Origin: Patescibacteria group bacterium
GTDB lineage: Bacteria > Patescibacteriota > Minisyncoccia > Phycocordibacterales > UBA1550
Length of the DNA: 64,000 nucleotides
Reading direction: 5' to 3'
NCBI GenBank assembly: GCA_038062675.1
Contig: JBBTWP010000001.1
Location: 48,920 to 112,919, forward strand
Under the pieces are notes generated by a model that made no database searches, had not been told where the DNA came from, and saw only the letters and a program-made list of their open reading frames with translations. The stretch's first letter is position 1, and every line of letters starts with the position of its first letter. This document shows positions 30,501 to 39,956 of this stretch, in pieces. The position numbers were made by a program, and so were the translations under genes.

Positions 30501-31598
30501 ATGCCAAATAAAAAATCAACAACTTTAAAAAAACGTGTCTTCGTCGCCATGTCAGGGGGTGTAGACAGTTCCGTTGTTGCCGCGCTCTTGGTGAAAGAAG
30601 GGTACGCTGTCACCGGCGTTTTTATGAAAGTGTGGGAGCCTGATTTCTTGCCGTGCACATGGCGAGAAGAGCGACAGGATGCGATGCGTGTTGCCGCGCA
30701 TCTAGGGATACCACTTCTTACGTGGGATTTTGAACGCGAGTACAAAGAGGGTGTTGCCGACTACATGATTCGCGAGTACAAGGCAGGAAGGACCCCCAAT
30801 CCCGACGTGATGTGTAATAAGGAGGTAAAATTCGGTGCGTTTTTCCGTCGGGCTATCGCCATGGGGGCGGACTATGTTGCGACTGGTCATTATGCAAGAA
30901 TTGCGTTTGATCAACAGGAGGGCGTCTGTCGAATGTTTGCCGGAGTTGATGAGACAAAAGATCAGTCATATTTTTTGTGGACACTCGGGCAGGAAGAACT
31001 CAAAAAAACACTTTTCCCTATTGGGGAGTATAAAAAAATGAAAGTGCGGGCAATGGCAAAAAAGTTTGCATTGCCGACGGCAGAAAAAAAAGATAGCCAA
31101 GGGCTTTGCTTTGTGGGCAAGCTCGACATGAAAGATTTTCTTCTCCATTTTATGGAGAAAAAAGAAGGGGTGGTGGTGAATCAGGAAGGGGAACAGATCG
31201 GAACTCATCAAGGTGCATACTTTTATACACTCGGCGAGCGTCGCGGTTTTACGATTACAAAAAAAACGACTACCGAAACTCCTTACTACATTATTGCAAA
31301 AGATCTCGTTCAAAATACTTTGACCGTAGCACATAAAACGTCTGCGAAATCTTTGGAACAAGGAACAAAAGAAATACGAATCGCACAGATGAATGTGTGC
31401 GTAGGGGGTGTTTTCGATACTGAAAAAACCTATACAGCACGAATTCGCTATCATGGAGAGGCTCATGTCTGCAAAGCGCATAACCTGAATGGCACGTCTG
31501 CTATTTTGGAGTTTGAGAAACCTGTCCTTGTTGCTTCAGGGCAGTCTGTGGTGCTTTACGACAACGATGAGTGTGTGGGGGGTGGTATTGTGGAGTAA
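30501..31598 (+). CDS. mnmA: tRNA 2-thiouridine(34) synthase MnmA
   Basis: PP-loop VFVAMSGGVDSSV; catalytic cysteines. Confidence 0.9.
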   Translation: MPNKKSTTLKKRVFVAMSGGVDSSVVAALLVKEGYAVTGVFMKVWEPDFLPCTWREERQDAMRVAAHLGIPLLTWDFEREYKEGVADYMIREYKAGRTPNPDVMCNKEVKFGAFFRRAIAMGADYVATGHYARIAFDQQEGVCRMFAGVDETKDQSYFLWTLGQEELKKTLFPIGEYKKMKVRAMAKKFALPTAEKKDSQGLCFVGKLDMKDFLLHFMEKKEGVVVNQEGEQIGTHQGAYFYTLGERRGFTITKKTTTETPYYIIAKDLVQNTLTVAHKTSAKSLEQGTKEIRIAQMNVCVGGVFDTEKTYTARIRYHGEAHVCKAHNLNGTSAILEFEKPVLVASGQSVVLYDNDECVGGGIVE

Positions 31599-31623
31599 TG
31601 TCTCATTTGAAAGACTTCTTGCA

Positions 31624-32517
31624 ATGTGCGATGATATGGAGGATATGAAAAAAATACATCATAATGACAAAGCTGATGGCGGGGGTGTATGGGTCCTCAA
31701 GAATTCAGGCGAGCGAGAATTGTTTTCTTTAGAAAAACTCAAAAGGTCTCTCGTGCGATCTGGGGCGGATGCAAGTACCGTGGAACGTGTTGCGTCACAT
31801 ATTGTCCTAGAACTCAAGGACAATATGAAAACCTCGGCAATCTACCGCCACGCTTTCTCCATTCTTAAAAAGAATCAATATGTAGTTGCGCTTCGGTATA
31901 GTCTGCGTCGTGCGGTTGCCGATCTCGGTCCTAGTGGGTTTCCGTTTGAAAAGTTTGTTGCAGAAATTTTGAAGAGAAAAGGATATTCTACGCGAACGGG
32001 AATCATCTTGCCGGGGTTTTGTGTTTCTCATGAAGTTGATGTTCTTGCTGAAAAAGATAACAAACATATTTTTATTGAATGTAAATTCCATAATCAAGAG
32101 GGAATGAAAAGCGACGTAAAAGTGGCACTCTATGTGCATGCGCGGTTTCTCGATCTTCAAAAAGGTCACGAAAGAGGAGAACAATCTGCGTCAAGGATCC
32201 ATGAAGGGTGGCTCGTGACTAATACAAAACTCACTCATGATGCGATTCAGTATGCCAATTGCGCCGGACTCAACCTTATTGGTTGGGATTATCCTCACGA
32301 GGGGAACCTTCAAGATTTGATTTTAGAAACAGGAGTGCATCCACTCACATGCCTCATGAGTCTTTCGACTGCTCATAAAAACGAATTATTGCGACAGGGG
32401 ATTGTGATGTGCGTCGATCTCAAAAAGAAAGAGGAATCTTTGCAAAATCTCGGGCTTTCTCAGGAGAAAATTTCGAGTGTTATCAAGGAGGTGAATATGA
32501 TTTGTCGGGAAAACTAG
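31624..32517 (+). CDS. ATP-cone domain fused to Mrr-like restriction endonuclease domain
   Basis: N-terminal VWVLKNSGERELFSLEKLKRSL...VERVASHIVLEL is ATP-cone-like; C-terminal FEKFVAEILKRKGYS...HEVDVLAEKDNKHIFIECKFH is an Mrr_cat-like PD-(D/E)XK core. Confidence 0.6.
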   Translation: MCDDMEDMKKIHHNDKADGGGVWVLKNSGERELFSLEKLKRSLVRSGADASTVERVASHIVLELKDNMKTSAIYRHAFSILKKNQYVVALRYSLRRAVADLGPSGFPFEKFVAEILKRKGYSTRTGIILPGFCVSHEVDVLAEKDNKHIFIECKFHNQEGMKSDVKVALYVHARFLDLQKGHERGEQSASRIHEGWLVTNTKLTHDAIQYANCAGLNLIGWDYPHEGNLQDLILETGVHPLTCLMSLSTAHKNELLRQGIVMCVDLKKKEESLQNLGLSQEKISSVIKEVNMICREN

Positions 32518-34060: not shown

Positions 34061-35851
34061 ATGATGAATTCACAAGAAATTAGACAGCGATTTCTGGCAT
34101 TTTTTGAGAAGCGGGGGCACGCCATTATTCCCTCGTCACCCCTGGTGCCCGAAAATGACCCTTCAGTGCTTTTTAATACTGCAGGTATGCAACCGCTCGT
34201 GCCGTATCTCATGGGTTCACCCCACCCCAGCGGAGCGCGTCTCGCGGACGCACAGAAGTGTGTGCGCACGGGCGACATCGACGAAATCGGCGACAATACG
34301 CATGTCACCTTTTTTGAAATGCTTGGCAATTGGTCACTCGGCGATTATTTCAAAGACGAGTCTATCAAGTGGAGCTATGAACTTCTAACCTCAAAAGAAG
34401 AAGGGTTTGGGCTTGATCCCAAGCGTCTCTATGTGACGGTGTTTGAAGGGAATGATGATGCTCCGCGTGATGAAGAATCTGCTGCTATTTGGAAAAAGAT
34501 TTTTGCAGACGCAGGGATTTCTGGCGAGCGTATTTATTTTTTGCCCGCAAAGTCAAACTGGTGGAGCCCTGGCGACAATGGTCCCTGTGGTCCTGACACG
34601 GAAATGTTTTATGATGTGACGGGTAAACTGACTGATGGTATGACCAAGGAGGAATACCTTGCAGCCGACGAACGACAAGAGGTGGTAGAGGTCTGGAACA
34701 ATGTGTTCATGGAATACGAGAAAAAAGAGGGCAAGGTGGTAGGTAAACTTGCGCAAAAAAACGTAGATACGGGTTCTGGGCTCGAGCGTATCACGATGGC
34801 AATACAGGGCAAGAACAATATTTTTGATACAGATTTGTTTGTGCCGGTTATGGAGAAAATTAAATCGGGGGCAACGCACTACGACGAGCGGGCAGCGCGC
34901 ATTGTTGCTGACCATATTCGTACTGCGGTGTTTATGATTGGGGATGGAGTACGACCATCGAACACTGACCAAGGGTATATTTTGCGCCGACTTCTCCGCC
35001 GCGCTGTGCGCTTTGCGGATGTTCTGGGGATGCCACAAGGGACTCTTGTTGGTCTTGTGCCGGTATTCGCAGAAAAATACCAGGGAGTCTACAAAAATGT
35101 GGGAGCACAAATAGAGCTTGTCACCAATGAAATTCGTGGTGAGGAGGAGAAGTTCCGAAAGACGCTGGAGCGCGGGATAAAAGAATTTTCGAGGATTCCT
35201 CGCGGTGGTAGTGTGAGTGGGGTGCAAGCAAGTACTATGTTTACCACGTTTGGTTTTCCGTTTGAAATGATTACTGAACTTGCAAAAGAGTCAGGGATCA
35301 CCGTTGACGAAGTCGGTTTCCGTGAAGAAATGAAAAAACACCAAGAGCTTTCTCGCGCCGGTGCAGAGCAAAAATTCAAAGGCGGGCTTGCGGATGCAAA
35401 CGAGACGACGGTGATGCTCCACACTTCGACTCACCTCATGCTTGCAGGGTTGCGCAAATATCTCGGTGACCACGTGCATCAAGCGGGCTCAAACATAACA
35501 GTCGAGCGCACACGTTTCGACTTTACGCATCCGGAAAAGGTATCGCGCGAAACACTCGACAAAGTAGAAGCGTATGTGAATGAAGCAATTGCAAAGAAAT
35601 GTGGCGTAACGATTGAGCAAATGCCAAAAGGTGAGGCGCAAAAAAGGGGAGTTGAGGGGAGTTTTTGGGAAAAATATCCCGATGTGGTCAATGTGTATAT
35701 GGTCAAAGCTTCAGATGGCACTGTGTACTCGCAGGAGCTCTGTGGTGGCCCGCATGTCGAAAGTACCGCAACTATCAAGGGTACATTCAAAATCATCAAA
35801 GAAGAGGCAGTTTCGCAAGGTGTCCGTCGCGTGAAGGCAGTCTTGGTTTAA
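34061..35851 (+). CDS. alaS: alanyl-tRNA synthetase, short form lacking C-terminal domain
   Basis: Class II core (FNTAGMQP, GDYFKDE) and editing HxxxH...CGGPHV motifs; only 596 aa. Confidence 0.9.
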   Translation: MMNSQEIRQRFLAFFEKRGHAIIPSSPLVPENDPSVLFNTAGMQPLVPYLMGSPHPSGARLADAQKCVRTGDIDEIGDNTHVTFFEMLGNWSLGDYFKDESIKWSYELLTSKEEGFGLDPKRLYVTVFEGNDDAPRDEESAAIWKKIFADAGISGERIYFLPAKSNWWSPGDNGPCGPDTEMFYDVTGKLTDGMTKEEYLAADERQEVVEVWNNVFMEYEKKEGKVVGKLAQKNVDTGSGLERITMAIQGKNNIFDTDLFVPVMEKIKSGATHYDERAARIVADHIRTAVFMIGDGVRPSNTDQGYILRRLLRRAVRFADVLGMPQGTLVGLVPVFAEKYQGVYKNVGAQIELVTNEIRGEEEKFRKTLERGIKEFSRIPRGGSVSGVQASTMFTTFGFPFEMITELAKESGITVDEVGFREEMKKHQELSRAGAEQKFKGGLADANETTVMLHTSTHLMLAGLRKYLGDHVHQAGSNITVERTRFDFTHPEKVSRETLDKVEAYVNEAIAKKCGVTIEQMPKGEAQKRGVEGSFWEKYPDVVNVYMVKASDGTVYSQELCGGPHVESTATIKGTFKIIKEEAVSQGVRRVKAVLV

Positions 35852-35923: not shown

Positions 35924-35952
35924 TTGACAAATGGTTTGCTAGGTGATATACT
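35924..35952 (+). promoter_or_regulatory. consensus sigma70 promoter TTGACA-17-TATACT
   Basis: Perfect -35 at 35924-35929, 17-nt spacer, TATACT at 35947-35952; about 120-nt leader to the ATG at 36074. Confidence 0.65.
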
Positions 35953-35989
35953 ATTAACAATCTATTAGGAGATCTCAATAGAGCACATT

Positions 35990-36022
35990 GCAGACGTTTG
36001 AGTTGTAATGTCTGTTCTTTTA
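35990..36022 (+). promoter_or_regulatory. terminator-like hairpin within the 5' leader (candidate attenuator)
   Basis: gcagacg...atgtctg stem followed by ttcttttaa. Confidence 0.35.
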
Positions 36023-36073
36023 AACCAAATCGACTGGCGATAAAATCAAAGGCGATATTGCGGAGGATTTACC

Positions 36074-36697
36074 ATGAACGTAAGGTTCTATTTTGGCAGC
36101 AGTAAAAAGGCAATTGCAACTTACTTAAAATTGGGCTCAGACGTCCAAGGACATTATGTTGCGAGCGACGCCGACCCAAGAGACCCGACATTTATCTTGC
36201 GTGAGGAATTGCGTGAGAACATCTCTTTCGTTTCATGCCTCGTCCATCACTCCATCGTATCAAAGTGGCGTCTTCCAGACGGTGTTTCTTTTTGCAATAT
36301 CCCAGGGGTGGTGATTATTCATGATGCCCATCGCATCCCCAACTCTGAAGCTATTGTTAAGGCGCCAACGTGGGAGGCTCTATGTTCAGTATTTGAACAG
36401 CTCGAGAATCCAGAGTTGGTATACACTATGCCAAGGTCTAAATATCTCCTTGAACGTGCTTTGGAAAAGCAAATCGCAGCAGAAAAGGTCATTAAGTGGC
36501 TTCAAATTGATTGCAGTTGGATGAGTCACCGCATTGAATCTGATACAAGCCGTGCCTTGTTGACAGAGAAGGAAATTGGTCGGTTGAAGGCAGAAGTCCA
36601 TCAGTTGAAGCAGGATTTGGCAATTGCTAACAAGCGACCGTGGCGACGGAGTGCGAATTTTGCAAAATCGATTTGGAATCGTATGTGTGTAGAATGA
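36074..36697 (+). CDS. hypothetical protein (alpha/beta N-domain plus C-terminal coiled coil)
   Basis: GCGGAGGA RBS; alternating beta-alpha pattern; C-terminal heptad LTEKEIGRLKAEVHQLKQDLAIANKR. Confidence 0.45.
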   Translation: MNVRFYFGSSKKAIATYLKLGSDVQGHYVASDADPRDPTFILREELRENISFVSCLVHHSIVSKWRLPDGVSFCNIPGVVIIHDAHRIPNSEAIVKAPTWEALCSVFEQLENPELVYTMPRSKYLLERALEKQIAAEKVIKWLQIDCSWMSHRIESDTSRALLTEKEIGRLKAEVHQLKQDLAIANKRPWRRSANFAKSIWNRMCVE

Positions 36698-36757
36698 TGG
36701 GGGGAGTATAACCCTCATCCCCATGGCGGCTTTCTTAGGAAGGTCGCCATTTTTTTG
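36696..36757 (+). terminator. tandem hairpins plus T-tract (terminator)
   Basis: atgggg...ccccat then atggcggc...ggtcgccat followed by T7. Confidence 0.6.
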
Positions 36758-36835
36758 TATCTCTGGGTTGTTATTCACACTTATTTGATTATTATCTTGA
36801 AATAAAATTATTGTGCGTGGTATACTGTAAGAGTA

Positions 36836-38020
36836 ATGGCTTTTTCTTTTTTTTCCGAATCTGAAGATAAATCTCTCGTCCTACTAGTGGATGTTGGGTC
36901 GGGGAGTGTTGGAGGTGCTCTGGTAAGAATTTCTGCGGGAAAACCACCGCACGTTCTTGCTACGGTGCGTCGTAATATTGAATTTCAAAACGCTCTTTCG
37001 TCTGCTCGGTTTCTTCTGACAATGAATAATGCACTCGAGCAGACACTCAAAGATCTTCAGGGGTTCGCGAAAGGGCATGGTGCGCCATCGCAGATTTTTT
37101 GTACCCTCTCATCTCCGTGGTTTATTCTCAAAACTCGGCACTTGCGCGTTGTTCGAGGAGAACCTTTTGAAGTCTCTGAGCGAGTGGTAAAAGAATTTCT
37201 GGATGAAGAGATTTTAAAGTTAAAAGAAGAACTCGCCCTCACATTGCCACCCAAAGAGGTTGAAGTTATTGAAAAGAAAATCATTCAAATGAAATTGAAT
37301 GGTTATGAGCTCAAAAATCCGTATGGTCAAAAAACCTCACAAATGGAAATGGTGGTTGCTATTGGGGTTTCGTCTACGCGAGTTGTTGCGAGCATCAAGC
37401 GAAAAATCGGGCAAATTTTTCATACAAAATCGCTTAGGTTTGGGTCGTTTCCCCTTGTGGCATTCAGCGCCCTTCGTGATATTTTCCCTAACGAAAGGAA
37501 TTTTTTGTTCTTGGACATTACGGGAGAAGCGACTGATGTGTCGCTGGTAGAGCGAGATGTATTGTTGGGGAATTCTCTGTTTCCGCGGGGGAGGAATTTT
37601 TTTGTTCGAGAAATCTCAACTGCGCTTCACACTGTACACGAAGAAGCGGAATCATTATTCAATATGCATGTGCGTGGTGAGCTTGCTGGGCCCAAAAAAG
37701 TTGCAGTTGCAGATATTATTGAGCGTAGTCGTGTTGAATGGTTGGACCGTTTCGAAAAGGCACTCGCAGTCCTCGCAGGAGAAGGCACGCTGCCCCGTAC
37801 GGTGTTCTTTCTTGCAGACGCTGATGTCGCCGCCTTTTTCTCGGAAGTCATCAATGGCGCACAGTCAAAGTTTTTACTTAACAATGGATTTGAGTCACGA
37901 TTCCTGGATGCACTCATCACTATGCAGTTTGTAGGTTTTGAAAGCGGAGTGATTCGTGACCCGTTTTTGGTTGTCCTAGCGCTCCTCGCTCACAAGGAAT
38001 TAACCGCTTCCGAATCCTAG
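36836..38020 (+). CDS. actin-like ATPase fold protein (ASKHA; FtsA/PilM-like)
   Basis: Phosphate-1-like LLVDVGSGSVGGALV and phosphate-2-like FLFLDITGEATDVSLV motifs. Confidence 0.4.
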   Translation: MAFSFFSESEDKSLVLLVDVGSGSVGGALVRISAGKPPHVLATVRRNIEFQNALSSARFLLTMNNALEQTLKDLQGFAKGHGAPSQIFCTLSSPWFILKTRHLRVVRGEPFEVSERVVKEFLDEEILKLKEELALTLPPKEVEVIEKKIIQMKLNGYELKNPYGQKTSQMEMVVAIGVSSTRVVASIKRKIGQIFHTKSLRFGSFPLVAFSALRDIFPNERNFLFLDITGEATDVSLVERDVLLGNSLFPRGRNFFVREISTALHTVHEEAESLFNMHVRGELAGPKKVAVADIIERSRVEWLDRFEKALAVLAGEGTLPRTVFFLADADVAAFFSEVINGAQSKFLLNNGFESRFLDALITMQFVGFESGVIRDPFLVVLALLAHKELTASES

Positions 38021-38041
38021 GAACACATTTATTTTACTACT

Positions 38042-39403
38042 ATGAGCAACGAACAACCACGAAAACCAATTCAAGATATCATGGTTCCTCACCAAGAGCT
38101 TCTTCGTCGACCGGTCTCCACAACAAGTCATGCTAATGTGGTTTTGAGTGCGCGCCCAAAAGAGCCTACTCCTCGCCGAATCGAAAACAACCCTTTTTTT
38201 GCGAAAAATACCGAACCGCGTGAACAGAAAAAAGCAAAAAAATCTGGTTTCTGGTTTCTGGTTCTAGGTGTTGTTGTGCTTCTTGCTGCATTGTTTGGGC
38301 TTGCGGTATTTTTTTCTTCCGCGAACATTGAACTTACTCCTATTTCTAAAAGTGTCGTGCTTGACCATGAATTTTCTGCAACCGCCAATCTGGACGGAGA
38401 TAACCTTGTGTTCGAGTTTGTGAGTTTTTCAGATGAGAAGACAAAAGAAATTCCCGCAACTGTGGAGCAGAAAATCCAGAAAAAAGCGTCAGGGAAGGTC
38501 CTCATCTATAATTCCTACAGTGCAACAAGTCAACGACTTATCAAAAACACTCGCCTCGAGTCTTCTGATCATAAGATTTTTCGAATTGATGAGTCTGTGG
38601 TTGTTCCGGGGGCAAAAGTGAGCACAAAAGCGGGGGAACGAGGCAAAATCGTAGAGCCGGGGAAGGTGGAGGTTGTTGTGTATGCAGATGTGCCCGGCAA
38701 AGAATATAATATTGGCTTGGGGGACTTCACAATTCCCGGATTCAAGGGCGATCCACGCTATACAAAGTTTACCGCACGTTCAAATCCAACCTCTCTTATT
38801 GGTGGAGGGTTTTCTGGCACCATAAAGGTTCCTTCCGAGTCCGCTGTAACGACAGCGCAAAATGAGCTCAGAGAAGAACTCAAGAAGAATGCGATTGATA
38901 AATCGCGCGCACAAATTCCTGAAAATAAATCCTTTTTTCCGGGGAGCGTTATTATGAAATTTGAAGAAGTCCCTCAAGATTTTTCAGCTGATTCGGTGGC
39001 AAAAATATCTCTTCGCGCCAGCACATCAATATTTTTCTTTGACACCGAGTCACTTACCAAAAAAATTATCGGAAAGGCGATTCCTCAAGAATCCGCAAAA
39101 CCTCTTGCCGTCTCTAGTATTGGATCAATCTCATTCGCATTCCTTGACCCTGTCGATAATGTGGTGCTCTCTGACTTAAAGCATGTTCGCTTTAAGCTCT
39201 CGGGGGAAGCGTCGTTTGTAGGAAATATCGATACTGAAAAATTGCGGGCACTTTTAGCGGGGAAAACAAGAGAAGAATCTTTTACGGTTATTAAAAATCA
39301 AAACAATGTTGAAAAAATGAATTTTATCATTCGGCCATTTTGGCAAAAGAGACTTCCTCTGGATCCTCAGAAAATATTTGTTAAAGTTTTGATCCCAAAC
39401 TAA
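38042..39403 (+). CDS. single-pass membrane protein with large extracytoplasmic domain
   Basis: Cytoplasmic N-terminus of about 75 aa, TM helix FWFLVLGVVVLLAALFGLAVFF, about 360-aa beta-rich external region. Confidence 0.4.
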   Translation: MSNEQPRKPIQDIMVPHQELLRRPVSTTSHANVVLSARPKEPTPRRIENNPFFAKNTEPREQKKAKKSGFWFLVLGVVVLLAALFGLAVFFSSANIELTPISKSVVLDHEFSATANLDGDNLVFEFVSFSDEKTKEIPATVEQKIQKKASGKVLIYNSYSATSQRLIKNTRLESSDHKIFRIDESVVVPGAKVSTKAGERGKIVEPGKVEVVVYADVPGKEYNIGLGDFTIPGFKGDPRYTKFTARSNPTSLIGGGFSGTIKVPSESAVTTAQNELREELKKNAIDKSRAQIPENKSFFPGSVIMKFEEVPQDFSADSVAKISLRASTSIFFFDTESLTKKIIGKAIPQESAKPLAVSSIGSISFAFLDPVDNVVLSDLKHVRFKLSGEASFVGNIDTEKLRALLAGKTREESFTVIKNQNNVEKMNFIIRPFWQKRLPLDPQKIFVKVLIPN

Positions 39404-39463
39404 TCTATTCGAGCGTTTACCTATTGACGGCGCAAGTATTATTTGATACCATAAAAGTTCGCA

Positions 39464-39682
39464 ATGGCAGAAACAGAAAAAGTTGAGGAATTAGTACAAG
39501 GGGAGGTCATCGAAGCCCTCCCCAGCACTATGTTTCGTGTTCAGTTTCCTGACGGAAACGTACTCATAAGTTACCTTGCGGGCAAGATGCGATTTAATCG
39601 TATCAAGGTTTTAGTGGGGGATAAAGTGTTTGTAAAAATTGACCCCTATGGCGGTAAAGGACGCATTGTAAAACGCCTTTAG
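39464..39682 (+). CDS. infA: translation initiation factor IF-1
   Basis: 72-aa S1-like OB fold (GKMRFNRIKVLVGDKV). Confidence 0.9.
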   Translation: MAETEKVEELVQGEVIEALPSTMFRVQFPDGNVLISYLAGKMRFNRIKVLVGDKVFVKIDPYGGKGRIVKRL

Positions 39683-39842: not shown

Positions 39843-39956
39843 ATGAAAGTACGAGCATCAGTAAAAAAAATTTGTGTGAAATGCAAGACGGTCAAACGAG
39901 CCAATCGTGTTCGTGTTATTTGTGCTGACCCCCGCCACAAACAACGTCAAGGTTAA
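39843..39956 (+). CDS. rpmJ: 50S ribosomal protein L36
   Basis: [37 protein letters not shown]; below the ORF-track length cutoff, found by eye. Confidence 0.85.

What the first reader, a model, noticed from the sequence alone, without database searches (positions are those of the whole stretch)
36074..39403. Uncharacterised three-gene unit: unknown alpha/beta-plus-coiled-coil protein, actin-like ATPase, TM-anchored extracytoplasmic protein
Three tightly spaced genes with no assignable function sit behind the strong promoter and structured leader, just upstream of infA. The middle gene carries two ASKHA phosphate-binding-like motifs (DVGSGSVGG and DITGEATDV), so it is an actin-fold ATPase of the FtsA/PilM/MreB kind. 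The last gene is a single-pass membrane protein with a 360-aa external domain. The first gene (207 aa) ends in a heptad coiled coil. An actin-like ATPase paired with a bitopic membrane partner resembles divisome (FtsA) or pilus-assembly (PilM-PilN) modules, but no FtsZ, PilN/O or pilin is adjacent. This may be an undescribed cytoskeletal or envelope system in a lineage with poorly understood cell division.
Basis: partly seen in the sequence, partly recalled or inferred. Interest (0 to 1): 0.6.

Follow-up and report, generated by a model that had tools for sequence, protein, structure and literature searches.

The report
FtsA-like protein plus membrane partner
Two of the three genes form a tightly linked pair, conserved at the same genome position across the ultra-small Parcubacteria, that encodes an actin-like (FtsA/PilM-type) cytoplasmic protein and a membrane-anchored outer protein shaped like a phage baseplate wedge; its function has not been described, and the third gene is an unrelated, lineage-specific insertion.

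Summary
The three ORFs are real and lie at the stated coordinates, but they are not one unit. Gene 1 (207 aa) has its own promoter and a strong terminator. It has one homologue in 5.8 billion proteins and is absent from 121 of 121 related loci.

Genes 2 and 3 form a conserved two-gene operon with their own near-leaderless promoter. Gene 3 follows gene 2 in every related locus with enough sequence, at down to about 25-30% identity. The pair almost always sits just upstream of infA-rpmJ-rpsM-rpsK.

Gene 2 is confirmed as an actin-fold protein of the FtsA/PilM class (AlphaFold pLDDT 89.5; Foldseek E 5e-20 to FtsA, 4e-19 to PilM). It fails the FtsA family thresholds, has no C-terminal membrane helix, and has Asp residues where the adenosine-motif glycines should be.

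Gene 3 is an N-in, single-pass membrane protein. Its 363-aa ectodomain resembles phage baseplate wedge proteins (Baseplate J/gp47) and the GlxA beta-barrel. A short N-terminal cytoplasmic peptide is conserved. The family has at least 2,932 clusters at 50% identity, none of them named.

Best reading: a PilM-PilN / FtsA-FtsN-style transmembrane module with a new kind of outer domain, probably serving a housekeeping envelope or division function. The function itself is inferred, not shown.

The parts
36797..36826 (+). Promoter of the gene 2-gene 3 operon (TTGAAA, 18 nt, TG-extended TATACT). The -10 element ends 9 nt before the ATG, so the mRNA is leaderless or nearly so.
   Evidence: (10 of 12 matches, TG present) and sequence. 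The same arrangement, ATTGAAA-N17/18-TGgTAcAAT-N9-ATG, recurs upstream of gene 2 in most close relatives, and a TAtAAT-like box within about 6-12 nt of the start appears in distant ones.
36836..38020 (+). Gene 2: a 394-aa cytoplasmic actin-fold protein of the FtsA/PilM class, forming a new subfamily.
   Evidence: AF2 pLDDT 89.5, pTM 0.88. Foldseek against PDB: FtsA 1e4f E 5e-20, TM 0.67-0.72; PilM 5eoy E 4e-19 and 2ych TMt 0.72. Profile against PDB sequences: FtsA E 0.006, PilM E 0.01. Pfam FtsA 14.7 bits against a cut-off of 31.8; TIGR01174 16.9 against 175.85.
36890..36913 (+). Gene 2 phosphate-1 motif (aa 19-26, DVGSGSVG).
   Evidence: D19 99%, G21 96% and S24 95% conserved in 82 sequences. 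Aligns to DIGSTS of PilM chain 3jc8.
37121..37375 (+). Gene 2 1C-type subdomain (about aa 96-180), carrying the near-invariant L154-N-G-Y157 and N161-P-Y-G motifs.
   Evidence: Secondary-structure elements E97-112, H115-135, E142-154 and E166-180. The region is collinear with FtsA chain 7q6g residues 53-257, including FtsA's IKNPVG motif. L154, N155, G156 and Y157 are 96-99% conserved.
37514..37537 (+). Gene 2 phosphate-2 motif (aa 227-234, DITGEATD).
   Evidence: D227 94%, G230 87%, E231 95% and T233 90% conserved. Aligns to DIGGGTMD of FtsA.
37805..37825 (+). Gene 2 adenosine-motif position (aa 324-330, FFLADAD). The usual GG(G/A) is replaced by (T/A)-D-x-D.
   Evidence: D328 85-100% conserved. 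In one search the preceding strand aligns to PilM ...KVYLSG. The effect on nucleotide binding is inferred, not tested.
38042..39403 (+). Gene 3: a 453-aa bitopic (N-in) membrane protein with a baseplate-wedge-like ectodomain.
38060..38113 (+). Gene 3 conserved N-terminal cytoplasmic peptide (aa 7-24, RKPIQDIMVPHQELLRRP). It is the candidate docking peptide for gene 2.
   Evidence: The pattern [KR]-x-[IM]-x-D-[IV]-x-[VP]-P-x4-[SI]-[IV]-R-[RNK]-[IP] is kept in relatives down to about 30% identity, while the following linker varies in length and sequence. D12 is 93% conserved in 91 sequences. Binding to gene 2 is inferred.
38240..38311 (+). Gene 3 transmembrane helix (aa 67-90), preceded by the basic patch KKAKK.
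   Evidence: helix 67-90, pLDDT 84-89. The positive-inside rule gives N-in, C-out (inference).
38486..38818 (+). Gene 3 beta-barrel domain (aa 149-259). It is the most conserved part of the protein and carries an invariant polar patch.
   Evidence: Pfam GlxA beta-barrel PF21110: E 4.9e-5 for the window protein, and a match in 17 of 33 family members. PHROG 6 (baseplate wedge) E 0.003 at aa 143-231. N157, Q164, T170, R171, E173, R181, D216, Y222, N223, D228, K235 and R239 are 90-100% conserved in 91 sequences.
39424..39452 (+). Promoter of infA in the gene 3-infA spacer. It marks the downstream edge of the pair. No terminator lies between gene 3 and infA.
   Evidence: TTGACG-17-TACCAT with TG. 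The arrangement TTGACG-N17-TGgTAttAT about 11 nt before the infA ATG is conserved in most related loci.
35924..36757 (+). NOT part of the unit. This is the separate gene 1 cassette: promoter 35924-35952, 5' leader, gene 1 (36074-36697, 207 aa) and intrinsic terminator 36723-36757.
   Evidence: Only one homologue exists (P0242, 56% identity), at the same position after alaS. Absent from 121 of 121 related loci. dN/dS 0.45 against 0.10 for alaS.

Best explanation
Genes 2 and 3 are a conserved two-gene operon that encodes a two-protein module spanning the membrane.

Gene 2 is a cytoplasmic actin-fold protein of the FtsA/PilM class. It has no membrane-targeting helix of its own. I infer that it is held at the membrane by binding the short, conserved N-terminal cytoplasmic peptide of gene 3. 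This is how PilM binds the PilN N-terminus and how FtsA binds the FtsN tail.

Gene 3 crosses the membrane once. Outside the cell it displays a multi-domain ectodomain built like a phage baseplate wedge protein (Baseplate J/gp47). Its beta-barrel carries an invariant polar patch that is probably a ligand or partner binding site.

I infer that the nucleotide or assembly state of gene 2 inside the cell controls the clustering or conformation of gene 3 outside. The fixed position beside core housekeeping genes, the dedicated promoter and the very wide distribution in Parcubacteria argue for a constitutive envelope function. The likeliest such function is cell division or wall and surface growth.

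Shown: the folds, the gene linkage, the transcription signals, the conservation pattern and the distribution. Inferred: the physical contact, the direction of control and the cellular process. Gene 1 is not part of the module.
For: Gene 2 fold: AF2 pLDDT 89.5; full-length Foldseek matches to FtsA and PilM at E 1e-15 to 5e-20; profile matches to FtsA and PilM chains that are collinear through the 1C subdomain and share FtsA's NPxG motif.

Gene 2 ends 3 residues after its last core helix, so it has no linker or amphipathic tail.

Gene 3: one TM helix and an N-terminal peptide conserved down to about 30% identity, followed by a variable linker.

Linkage: gene 3 lies directly downstream of gene 2 in 38 of 38 genome loci that continue past gene 2, and gene 2 lies upstream of gene 3 in 60 of 60 metagenome loci with room. 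Gaps are often 1-4 nt.

A dedicated conserved promoter sits upstream of gene 2, often preceded by a terminator, and a separate infA promoter follows gene 3.

The most conserved surfaces are the 1C-subdomain LNGY motif in gene 2 and the polar patch of the gene 3 barrel.

Family size: 2,932 clusters at 50% identity with E<=1e-30.

Position: flanked by alaS, rpsP or a TlyA-like gene upstream and by infA-rpmJ-rpsM-rpsK downstream.
Against: No direct evidence that the two proteins touch.

Gene 2's adenosine motif lacks the canonical glycines, so ATP binding, and therefore nucleotide-controlled behaviour, is uncertain.

No division, wall-synthesis or pilus gene lies next to the pair in 1.69 Mb of related loci, so the cellular process is a guess from context.

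Conserved synteny in reduced genomes can persist without functional coupling to the neighbours.

The inter-domain geometry of the gene 3 model is uncertain (pTM 0.50). The full-length matches to wedge proteins have a high rmsd.
Confidence: 0.55

Rival explanations
1. Gene 2 is simply this lineage's true FtsA orthologue, highly diverged. Gene 3 is then its FtsN, FtsQ or DivIB-like bitopic divisome partner, and the pair would be the known divisome anchor under a different sequence.
For: FtsA is the top structural match. The profile alignment is collinear with FtsA and shares its NPxG motif. PGAP names one member 'cell division FtsA domain-containing protein' and one member has a precomputed PF14450 hit. 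Parcubacteria proteins are generally very divergent (my own knowledge).
Confidence: 0.2
2. The pair is a PilM-PilN-type alignment module of a type IV pilus or competence pseudopilus, encoded away from the rest of the machine.
For: PilM matches are almost as strong as the FtsA matches (E 4e-19; 2ych TMt 0.72). Like PilM, gene 2 lacks a membrane helix and is followed by a bitopic protein with a conserved N-terminal peptide. Type IV pili are widespread in this radiation (PMC6744442; PMC8672522).
Against: No PilM_2 Pfam match at E<=1. No pilB, pilC, pilO or pilin gene in the window or in any related locus. In this radiation the canonical PilM, PilN, PilO, PilC and PilB families co-localise in many genomes (PMC6744442), so they are already accounted for by other genes. 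The fold matches for gene 3's ectodomain are led by GlxA and baseplate wedge proteins rather than pilus proteins.
Confidence: 0.12
3. Gene 3 is a remnant of, or a domesticated piece of, a phage tail or contractile injection system (baseplate J). Its adjacency to gene 2 is incidental.
For: Fold matches to baseplate wedge proteins and a weak PHROG 6 hit.
Against: There are no other tail genes nearby. Gene 3 has a TM anchor and a cytoplasmic peptide, which no wedge protein has. It sits in a fixed core-genome position in 121 loci, with ordinary sequence divergence. The family has at least 2,932 clusters. No relative was found in IMG/VR by pattern scan. There is no Baseplate_J Pfam match. An ancient recruitment of the fold is possible, but that does not make the gene a prophage remnant.
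Confidence: 0.04
4. All three genes form one functional unit behind the upstream promoter and leader.
For: The three genes are adjacent and on the same strand. The one gene 1 homologue sits at the same place after alaS.
Against: A strong terminator and a second promoter lie between gene 1 and gene 2. Gene 1 is absent from 121 of 121 related loci. Gene 1 has only two family members in 5.8 billion proteins. It is under relaxed constraint (dN/dS 0.45).
Confidence: 0.03

Closest known systems
PilM-PilN (type IV pilus inner-membrane alignment subcomplex; PDB 2ych, 5eou, 3jc8)
   Same: An FtsA-like actin fold with a 1C-type subdomain and no membrane helix of its own. The next gene encodes a bitopic N-in membrane protein with a short, conserved extreme N-terminus followed by a TM helix. 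The two genes are tightly spaced.
   Different: No pilO, pilB, pilC or pilin genes nearby. No PilM_2 Pfam match. The ectodomain is three to four times larger than PilN's and resembles a baseplate wedge protein rather than a ferredoxin-like domain. The N-terminal peptide is not the PilN INLLP type (PilN motif from my own knowledge; gene 3 peptide). The adenosine-motif glycines are replaced.
FtsA with its bitopic partners FtsN, FtsQ and DivIB (divisome; PDB 1e4f, 4a2a, 7q6i)
   Same: Best structural match, TM 0.67-0.72. The sequence profile is collinear through the 1C subdomain and shares the NPxG motif. FtsA's 1C subdomain binds cytoplasmic tails of bitopic division proteins (PMC7613929, listed), which matches the logic proposed here.
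   Different: Far below the FtsA family thresholds. No C-terminal amphipathic helix. Never beside ftsZ or ftsQ. The partner's outer domain gives no divisome-protein match among the leading fold hits.
Baseplate J / gp47 / T4 gp6-type wedge proteins of contractile tails and injection systems (Mu gp47 9ki1, A-1(L) gp31 8kea, phi812 9euf, diffocin 8v3w)
   Different: Gene 3 is a cellular, membrane-anchored, extracytoplasmic protein in a core-genome position, with no tail genes around it. No Baseplate_J Pfam match. The global superposition is poor (rmsd above 8 A). Homology is plausible for the barrel and unproven for the whole ectodomain.
GlxA beta-barrel domain (Pfam PF21110; Streptomyces lividans GlxA, PDB 4unm)
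   Different: Gene 3 has no copper-oxidase propeller. The window protein scores 24.4 bits, below the 27-bit gathering threshold. The function of the barrel in GlxA is itself unknown.
GspL/EpsL (type II secretion) and MreB-MreC
   Same: Both follow the same general logic: an actin-fold cytoplasmic part coupled through one TM helix to an outer domain. In GspL the parts are fused; MreB and MreC are separate proteins (my own knowledge).
   Different: GspL did not appear among the best fold matches for gene 2. MreB-type topology is not the best match. MreC is not prominent among the gene 3 fold matches.

Membership tests
FtsA (TIGR01174; Pfam PF14450 plus SHS2_FtsA) | Actin fold with a 1C subdomain in place of 1B | tested here: met
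   Foldseek full-length matches to FtsA 1e4f, 4a2a and 7q6i: E about 1e-19, TM 0.60-0.72. The secondary-structure order is consistent with this topology.
FtsA (TIGR01174; Pfam PF14450 plus SHS2_FtsA) | Scores above the curated family thresholds | tested here: not met
   TIGR01174 16.9 bits against 175.85; PF14450 14.7 bits against 31.8. Precomputed Pfam is '-' for 119 of the 120 listed homologues.
FtsA (TIGR01174; Pfam PF14450 plus SHS2_FtsA) | C-terminal flexible linker plus amphipathic membrane-targeting helix | tested here: not met
   The protein ends 3 residues after the last predicted core helix (H376-391 of 394). Relatives end at the same place.
FtsA (TIGR01174; Pfam PF14450 plus SHS2_FtsA) | Genomic association with ftsZ or ftsQ (dcw cluster) | tested here: not met
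   No tubulin signature and no second FtsA-like ORF in 135 held sequences totalling 1.69 Mb. The neighbours are alaS, rpsP or a TlyA-like gene, and infA with ribosomal protein genes.
FtsA (TIGR01174; Pfam PF14450 plus SHS2_FtsA) | Binds the FtsZ C-terminal peptide and polymerises on the membrane | not testable with these tools
   Needs biochemistry or a complex model.
PilM (Pfam PilM_2) | FtsA-like actin fold without a membrane helix | tested here: met
   PilM 5eoy E 4e-19; 2ych TMt 0.72, rmsd 4.6. No C-terminal tail.
PilM (Pfam PilM_2) | Matches the family model | tested here: not met
   No PilM_2 hit at E<=1. There is only a weak profile hit to the M. xanthus PilM chain, E 0.01.
PilM (Pfam PilM_2) | Encoded with pilN, pilO and the pilus motor or platform genes | tested here: not met
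   None in the window, in the 10-kb upstream extension, or in 121 related loci.
PilM (Pfam PilM_2) | Binds the conserved N-terminal peptide of the downstream bitopic protein | tested here: inconclusive
ASKHA ATPases in general | Phosphate-1, phosphate-2 and adenosine motifs all intact | tested here: inconclusive
   Phosphate-1 (D19-x-G-x-x-S) and phosphate-2 (D227-x-x-G-E-x-T-D) are conserved. The adenosine GG is replaced by (T/A)-D328-x-D.
Baseplate J / gp47 (Pfam PF04865) | Matches the family model | tested here: not met
   No PF04865 hit for gene 3 or for any of 33 relatives at E<=0.1. There is only PHROG 6 at E 0.003.
Baseplate J / gp47 (Pfam PF04865) | Wedge-protein fold (barrel, helix and alpha/beta domains) | tested here: met
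Baseplate J / gp47 (Pfam PF04865) | Part of a tail or injection-system gene cluster; a soluble structural protein | tested here: not met
   No tail genes nearby. Gene 3 has a TM anchor. No IMG/VR relatives by pattern scan.
GlxA beta-barrel domain (PF21110) | Matches the domain model above the gathering score | tested here: inconclusive
   The window protein scores 24.4 bits against 27 (E 4.9e-5). 17 of 33 relatives match at E<=0.1, best 3e-6. One close homologue (P0123) has a precomputed PF21110 hit. GlxA is the top fold match.

The most novel reading that the evidence does not exclude
A cellular, membrane-anchored relative of the phage baseplate wedge protein, operated from the cytoplasm by a dedicated FtsA/PilM-like actin-fold protein, forms a previously unrecognised envelope machine. 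It would be near-universal in Parcubacteria/Paceibacteria and would do a core job, such as division, wall or S-layer remodelling, or surface attachment, that other bacteria do with FtsA-FtsN/FtsQ-type modules. It would also mean that the baseplate-J fold has an ancient cellular branch outside contractile injection systems.
Probability: 0.25. Interest if true: 0.8.

Novelty: new variant of a known kind. Interest (0 to 1): 0.6.

Why it matters
Parcubacteria/Paceibacteria are among the most abundant and least understood bacteria, and how they divide and build their envelope is largely unknown. This pair is one of the most strongly linked and widely conserved sets of unknown genes I could find around a core-genome landmark. 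The gene 3 family has at least 2,932 clusters at 50% identity, and the pair holds a fixed position beside infA.

It adds a third branch to the FtsA/PilM class of bacterial actins. It also couples that branch to an outer domain type, baseplate-wedge/GlxA-like, not previously seen in such modules. That gives concrete, testable targets: a peptide-groove interaction, a conserved polar patch and a conserved 1C-subdomain motif. These could be tested in the few cultivated relatives or by heterologous expression.

Tried and rejected
**No significant or useful result**
- Single-sequence searches of genes 1 and 2 against PDB sequences gave nothing significant. The gene 3 profile against PDB sequences also gave nothing.
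- PADLOC gave nothing for genes 2 and 3, and one weak, uninterpretable hit for gene 1.
- Rfam and tRNA scans of the window were empty.
- Names for ten distant gene 3 representatives were all absent or 'hypothetical'.
- The IMG/VR pattern scan for gene 3 relatives found none.
- Six literature searches and four paper look-ups found no description of the pair.

**Tools unavailable or capped**
- The afdb50 fold library was not available.

**Test I could not complete**
- I tried to establish whether the same genome also has a canonical ftsA-ftsZ or pilMNO.
- The window and 10 kb upstream of it contain none. The downstream edge protein was not on record.
- Signature scans of all held loci found no FtsZ and no weaker gene 2 paralogue.
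- The remaining roughly 180 kb of the contig could not be reached with the tools, so this test stays open.

**Readings considered and rejected**
- The 'structured leader' as a riboswitch-like element of the unit: its fold z-score is -0.47, it has no Rfam hit, and it belongs to gene 1.
- Gene 1 as a mobile-element insertion: no flanking direct or inverted repeats of note.

Full report
**1. What is in the sequence**

Upstream is a short alaS (596 aa). Downstream are infA, rpmJ (39843-39956), rpsM, rpsK, rpsD, rpoA, rplQ, rplM, rpsI, grpE, dnaK and dnaJ.

The window is part of a 265-kb contig from Hainich groundwater (ENA ERZ1292624). Its closest named relatives are Candidatus Yonathbacteria, in the Parcubacteria group of the Patescibacteria.

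**2. Gene 1 is not part of the unit**

- Gene 1 has its own promoter (35924-35952, TTGACA-17-TATACT). A 12-bp-stem terminator with a T-run follows it at 36723-36757. Gene 2 then has a separate promoter at 36797-36826.
- Gene 1 has a single homologue among 5.8 billion clustered proteins (56% identity). That homologue also lies directly after alaS.
- Gene 1 is missing from all 42 genome loci and all 79 metagenome loci that carry genes 2 and 3. In those loci alaS, or another gene, is followed within tens of bases by gene 2.
- It is probably a real but fast-evolving gene: dN/dS is 0.45, against 0.10 for alaS. Only weak coiled-coil-type matches appear at aa 143-188.

**3. Genes 2 and 3 are a strongly conserved pair**

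- Starting from gene 2, gene 3 lies immediately downstream in 38 of 38 species-representative genome loci whose contig continues. The other four contigs end there. Stop-to-start gaps are mostly 1-70 nt and often 1-4 nt.
- Starting from gene 3 in metagenomes, gene 2 is upstream in 59 of 60 loci with room. The sixtieth has gene 2 843 nt away.
- The linkage holds down to about 24-30% identity and includes loci labelled Nomurabacteria, Kaiserbacteria and Paceibacterota.
- infA-rpsM-rpsK follow in 33 of 35 genome loci and 61 of 69 metagenome loci.
- The upstream neighbour varies: alaS, rpsP or a TlyA/FtsJ-like gene. One genome has a 1560-aa beta-helix protein inserted between gene 3 and infA.
- The invariant unit is therefore gene 2 plus gene 3.

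**4. Transcription signals**

- In close relatives the sequence ATTGAAA-N17/18-TGgTAcAAT ends 9 nt before the gene 2 ATG, as it does in the window. It is often preceded by a terminator hairpin.
- More distant relatives keep a TAtAAT-like box a few bases before the start.
- The mRNA is therefore leaderless or nearly so, and no Shine-Dalgarno sequence precedes gene 3 either.
- The gene 3-infA spacer carries infA's own conserved promoter and no terminator.

**5. Gene 2**

*Fold*
- The AlphaFold model is confident (pLDDT 89.5, pTM 0.88).
- It aligns over its full length to FtsA (1e4f E 5e-20; TM up to 0.72) and to PilM (5eoy E 4e-19; 2ych TMt 0.72). Other ASKHA proteins score far worse.
- A family profile finds FtsA and PilM chains at E 0.006-0.01. 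That alignment is collinear through the 1C subdomain and shares FtsA's NPxG motif.

*Departures from FtsA and PilM*
- It scores 16.9 bits against a TIGR01174 cut-off of 175.85, and 14.7 against 31.8 for PF14450. There is no PilM_2 hit.
- It ends right after the last core helix, so it has no FtsA-type membrane tail.
- The adenosine-motif glycines are replaced by (T/A)-D-x-D, while phosphate-1 and phosphate-2 are kept, with an almost invariant Glu231.

*Most conserved features*
- These are the phosphate motifs, S-x-P94-W95, L154-N-G-Y157 in the 1C subdomain, W302 and D375.
- A hydrophobic N-terminus, M-x-[FL]-S-[FL]-F, is also kept. A role for it in membrane contact is speculation.

**6. Gene 3**

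*Architecture*
- The model (pLDDT 77; ectodomain mostly 80-89; pTM 0.50) shows a disordered cytoplasmic N-terminus and one TM helix (aa 67-90).
- The ectodomain consists of a beta-sheet domain, a beta-barrel (about aa 149-259), a long helix (aa 266-291) and two alpha/beta domains.

*Fold matches*
- Foldseek independently gives GlxA (6e-6) and wedge proteins (4e-5 to 7e-4), some over 350-395 columns.
- At sequence level only the GlxA barrel model (17 of 33 members, best E 3e-6) and PHROG 6 'baseplate wedge subunit' (E 0.003) respond.

*Conservation*
- Nearly all invariant polar residues sit in the barrel: N157, Q164, T170, R171, E173, R181, D216, Y222, N223, D228, K235 and R239. This points to a binding site there (inference).
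- On the cytoplasmic side the extreme N-terminal peptide is kept across the whole family. In the window it reads RKPIQDIMVPHQELLRRP; in distant relatives it reads K-K-I-x-Q-D-[IV]-x-P-P-x-x-R-S-I-R-x-I-P.
- The linker to the TM helix varies from about 20 to 90 residues.

**7. Distribution and prior knowledge**

- A full HMMER scan of 1.84 billion representatives finds 2,932 clusters at E<=1e-30 and 4,856 at E<=1e-10 for gene 3.
- None of the sampled members carries a name other than 'hypothetical'.
- No relative was found in IMG/VR by pattern scan.
- I found no paper describing the pair.
- The literature reports that the canonical pilus proteins PilM, PilN, PilO, PilC and PilB co-localise in genomes of this radiation (PMC6744442). 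It also reports that annotated ftsA is expressed in groundwater Patescibacteria (PMC9938205).
- This suggests the pair is additional to those systems, but I could not verify that for this genome.

**8. Mechanism**

The anatomy matches the PilM-PilN and FtsA-FtsN logic:
- an FtsA/PilM-class protein without its own membrane anchor;
- followed, often with near-overlapping stop and start codons, by a bitopic protein;
- only the extreme N-terminus of that protein's cytoplasmic part is conserved.

I therefore propose that gene 2 docks on that peptide, probably through the conserved 1C-subdomain surface. I further propose that it controls the assembly or conformation of the outer baseplate-wedge-like domain, whose barrel binds a wall or surface ligand or partner.

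The dedicated promoter, the core-genome position and the breadth of the family argue for a constitutive envelope or division role.

The folds, linkage, signals and conservation are shown. The contact, the direction of control and the process are inferred.

The main rivals are:
- gene 2 is the lineage's own, diverged FtsA (0.2);
- the pair is a detached pilus alignment module (0.12);
- gene 3 is a phage remnant (0.04);
- the original three-gene unit (0.03).

**9. Verdict**

The pair is best filed as a new variant of the known 'actin-like protein plus bitopic partner' kind. It has an outer domain type not seen before in such modules, and it belongs to no curated family. Interest is 0.6.

Noticed in passing
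window 35974-36073 (5' leader of gene 1) and L008 9901-10000: The 100-nt leader of gene 1 is 96% identical between the two lineages that have gene 1, while alaS and gene 1 coding DNA are only 81-86% identical. Synonymous divergence in the 5' half of gene 1 (pS 0.25) is also well below that of alaS (pS 0.57). This suggests either constraint at the nucleotide level or a recent exchange of this cassette. The leader does not fold better than shuffled sequence and has no Rfam hit.
   Followed up: partly
window 36797-36836 and 39424-39464; related loci: Both gene 2 and infA have conserved TG-extended -10 boxes that end only 9-12 nt before the start codon, with no Shine-Dalgarno sequence. Leaderless or near-leaderless mRNAs appear to be the rule at these genes across this clade.
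   Followed up: partly
window 34061-35851: alaS encodes only 596 aa, with the catalytic domain (PF01411) and editing domain (PF07973) but no C-terminal C-Ala/DHHA1-type region. The same short form (590-596 aa) is present in relatives.
   Followed up: no
window 39843-39956: A 37-aa rpmJ (L36) [40 protein letters not shown], lies between infA and rpsM. It is not in the called-gene list of the source assembly, although it is called in a relative.
   Followed up: yes
L054 11789-17379: In one Paceibacterota genome a 1560-aa NosD/beta-helix protein and two small ORFs are inserted between gene 3 and infA. This is the only large interruption of the gene 3-infA junction that I examined.
   Followed up: no
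window 38486-38818 (gene 3 aa 149-259): The beta-barrel concentrates almost all invariant polar residues of gene 3, in the motifs QRLIKNTRxE, VPG, AD..G..YN and DFTxPGFK. It looks like a binding or active site. The same barrel type occurs in Streptomyces GlxA, where its role is also unknown.
   Followed up: partly
window 31489-32517 and neighbours (L001 4732-5682): An Mrr_cat/AF1548-like restriction-endonuclease-type ORF overlaps the end of mnmA. It is replaced by an unrelated 286-aa ORF in the Yonathbacteria relative, so this is a variable spot within an otherwise syntenic block.
   Followed up: no
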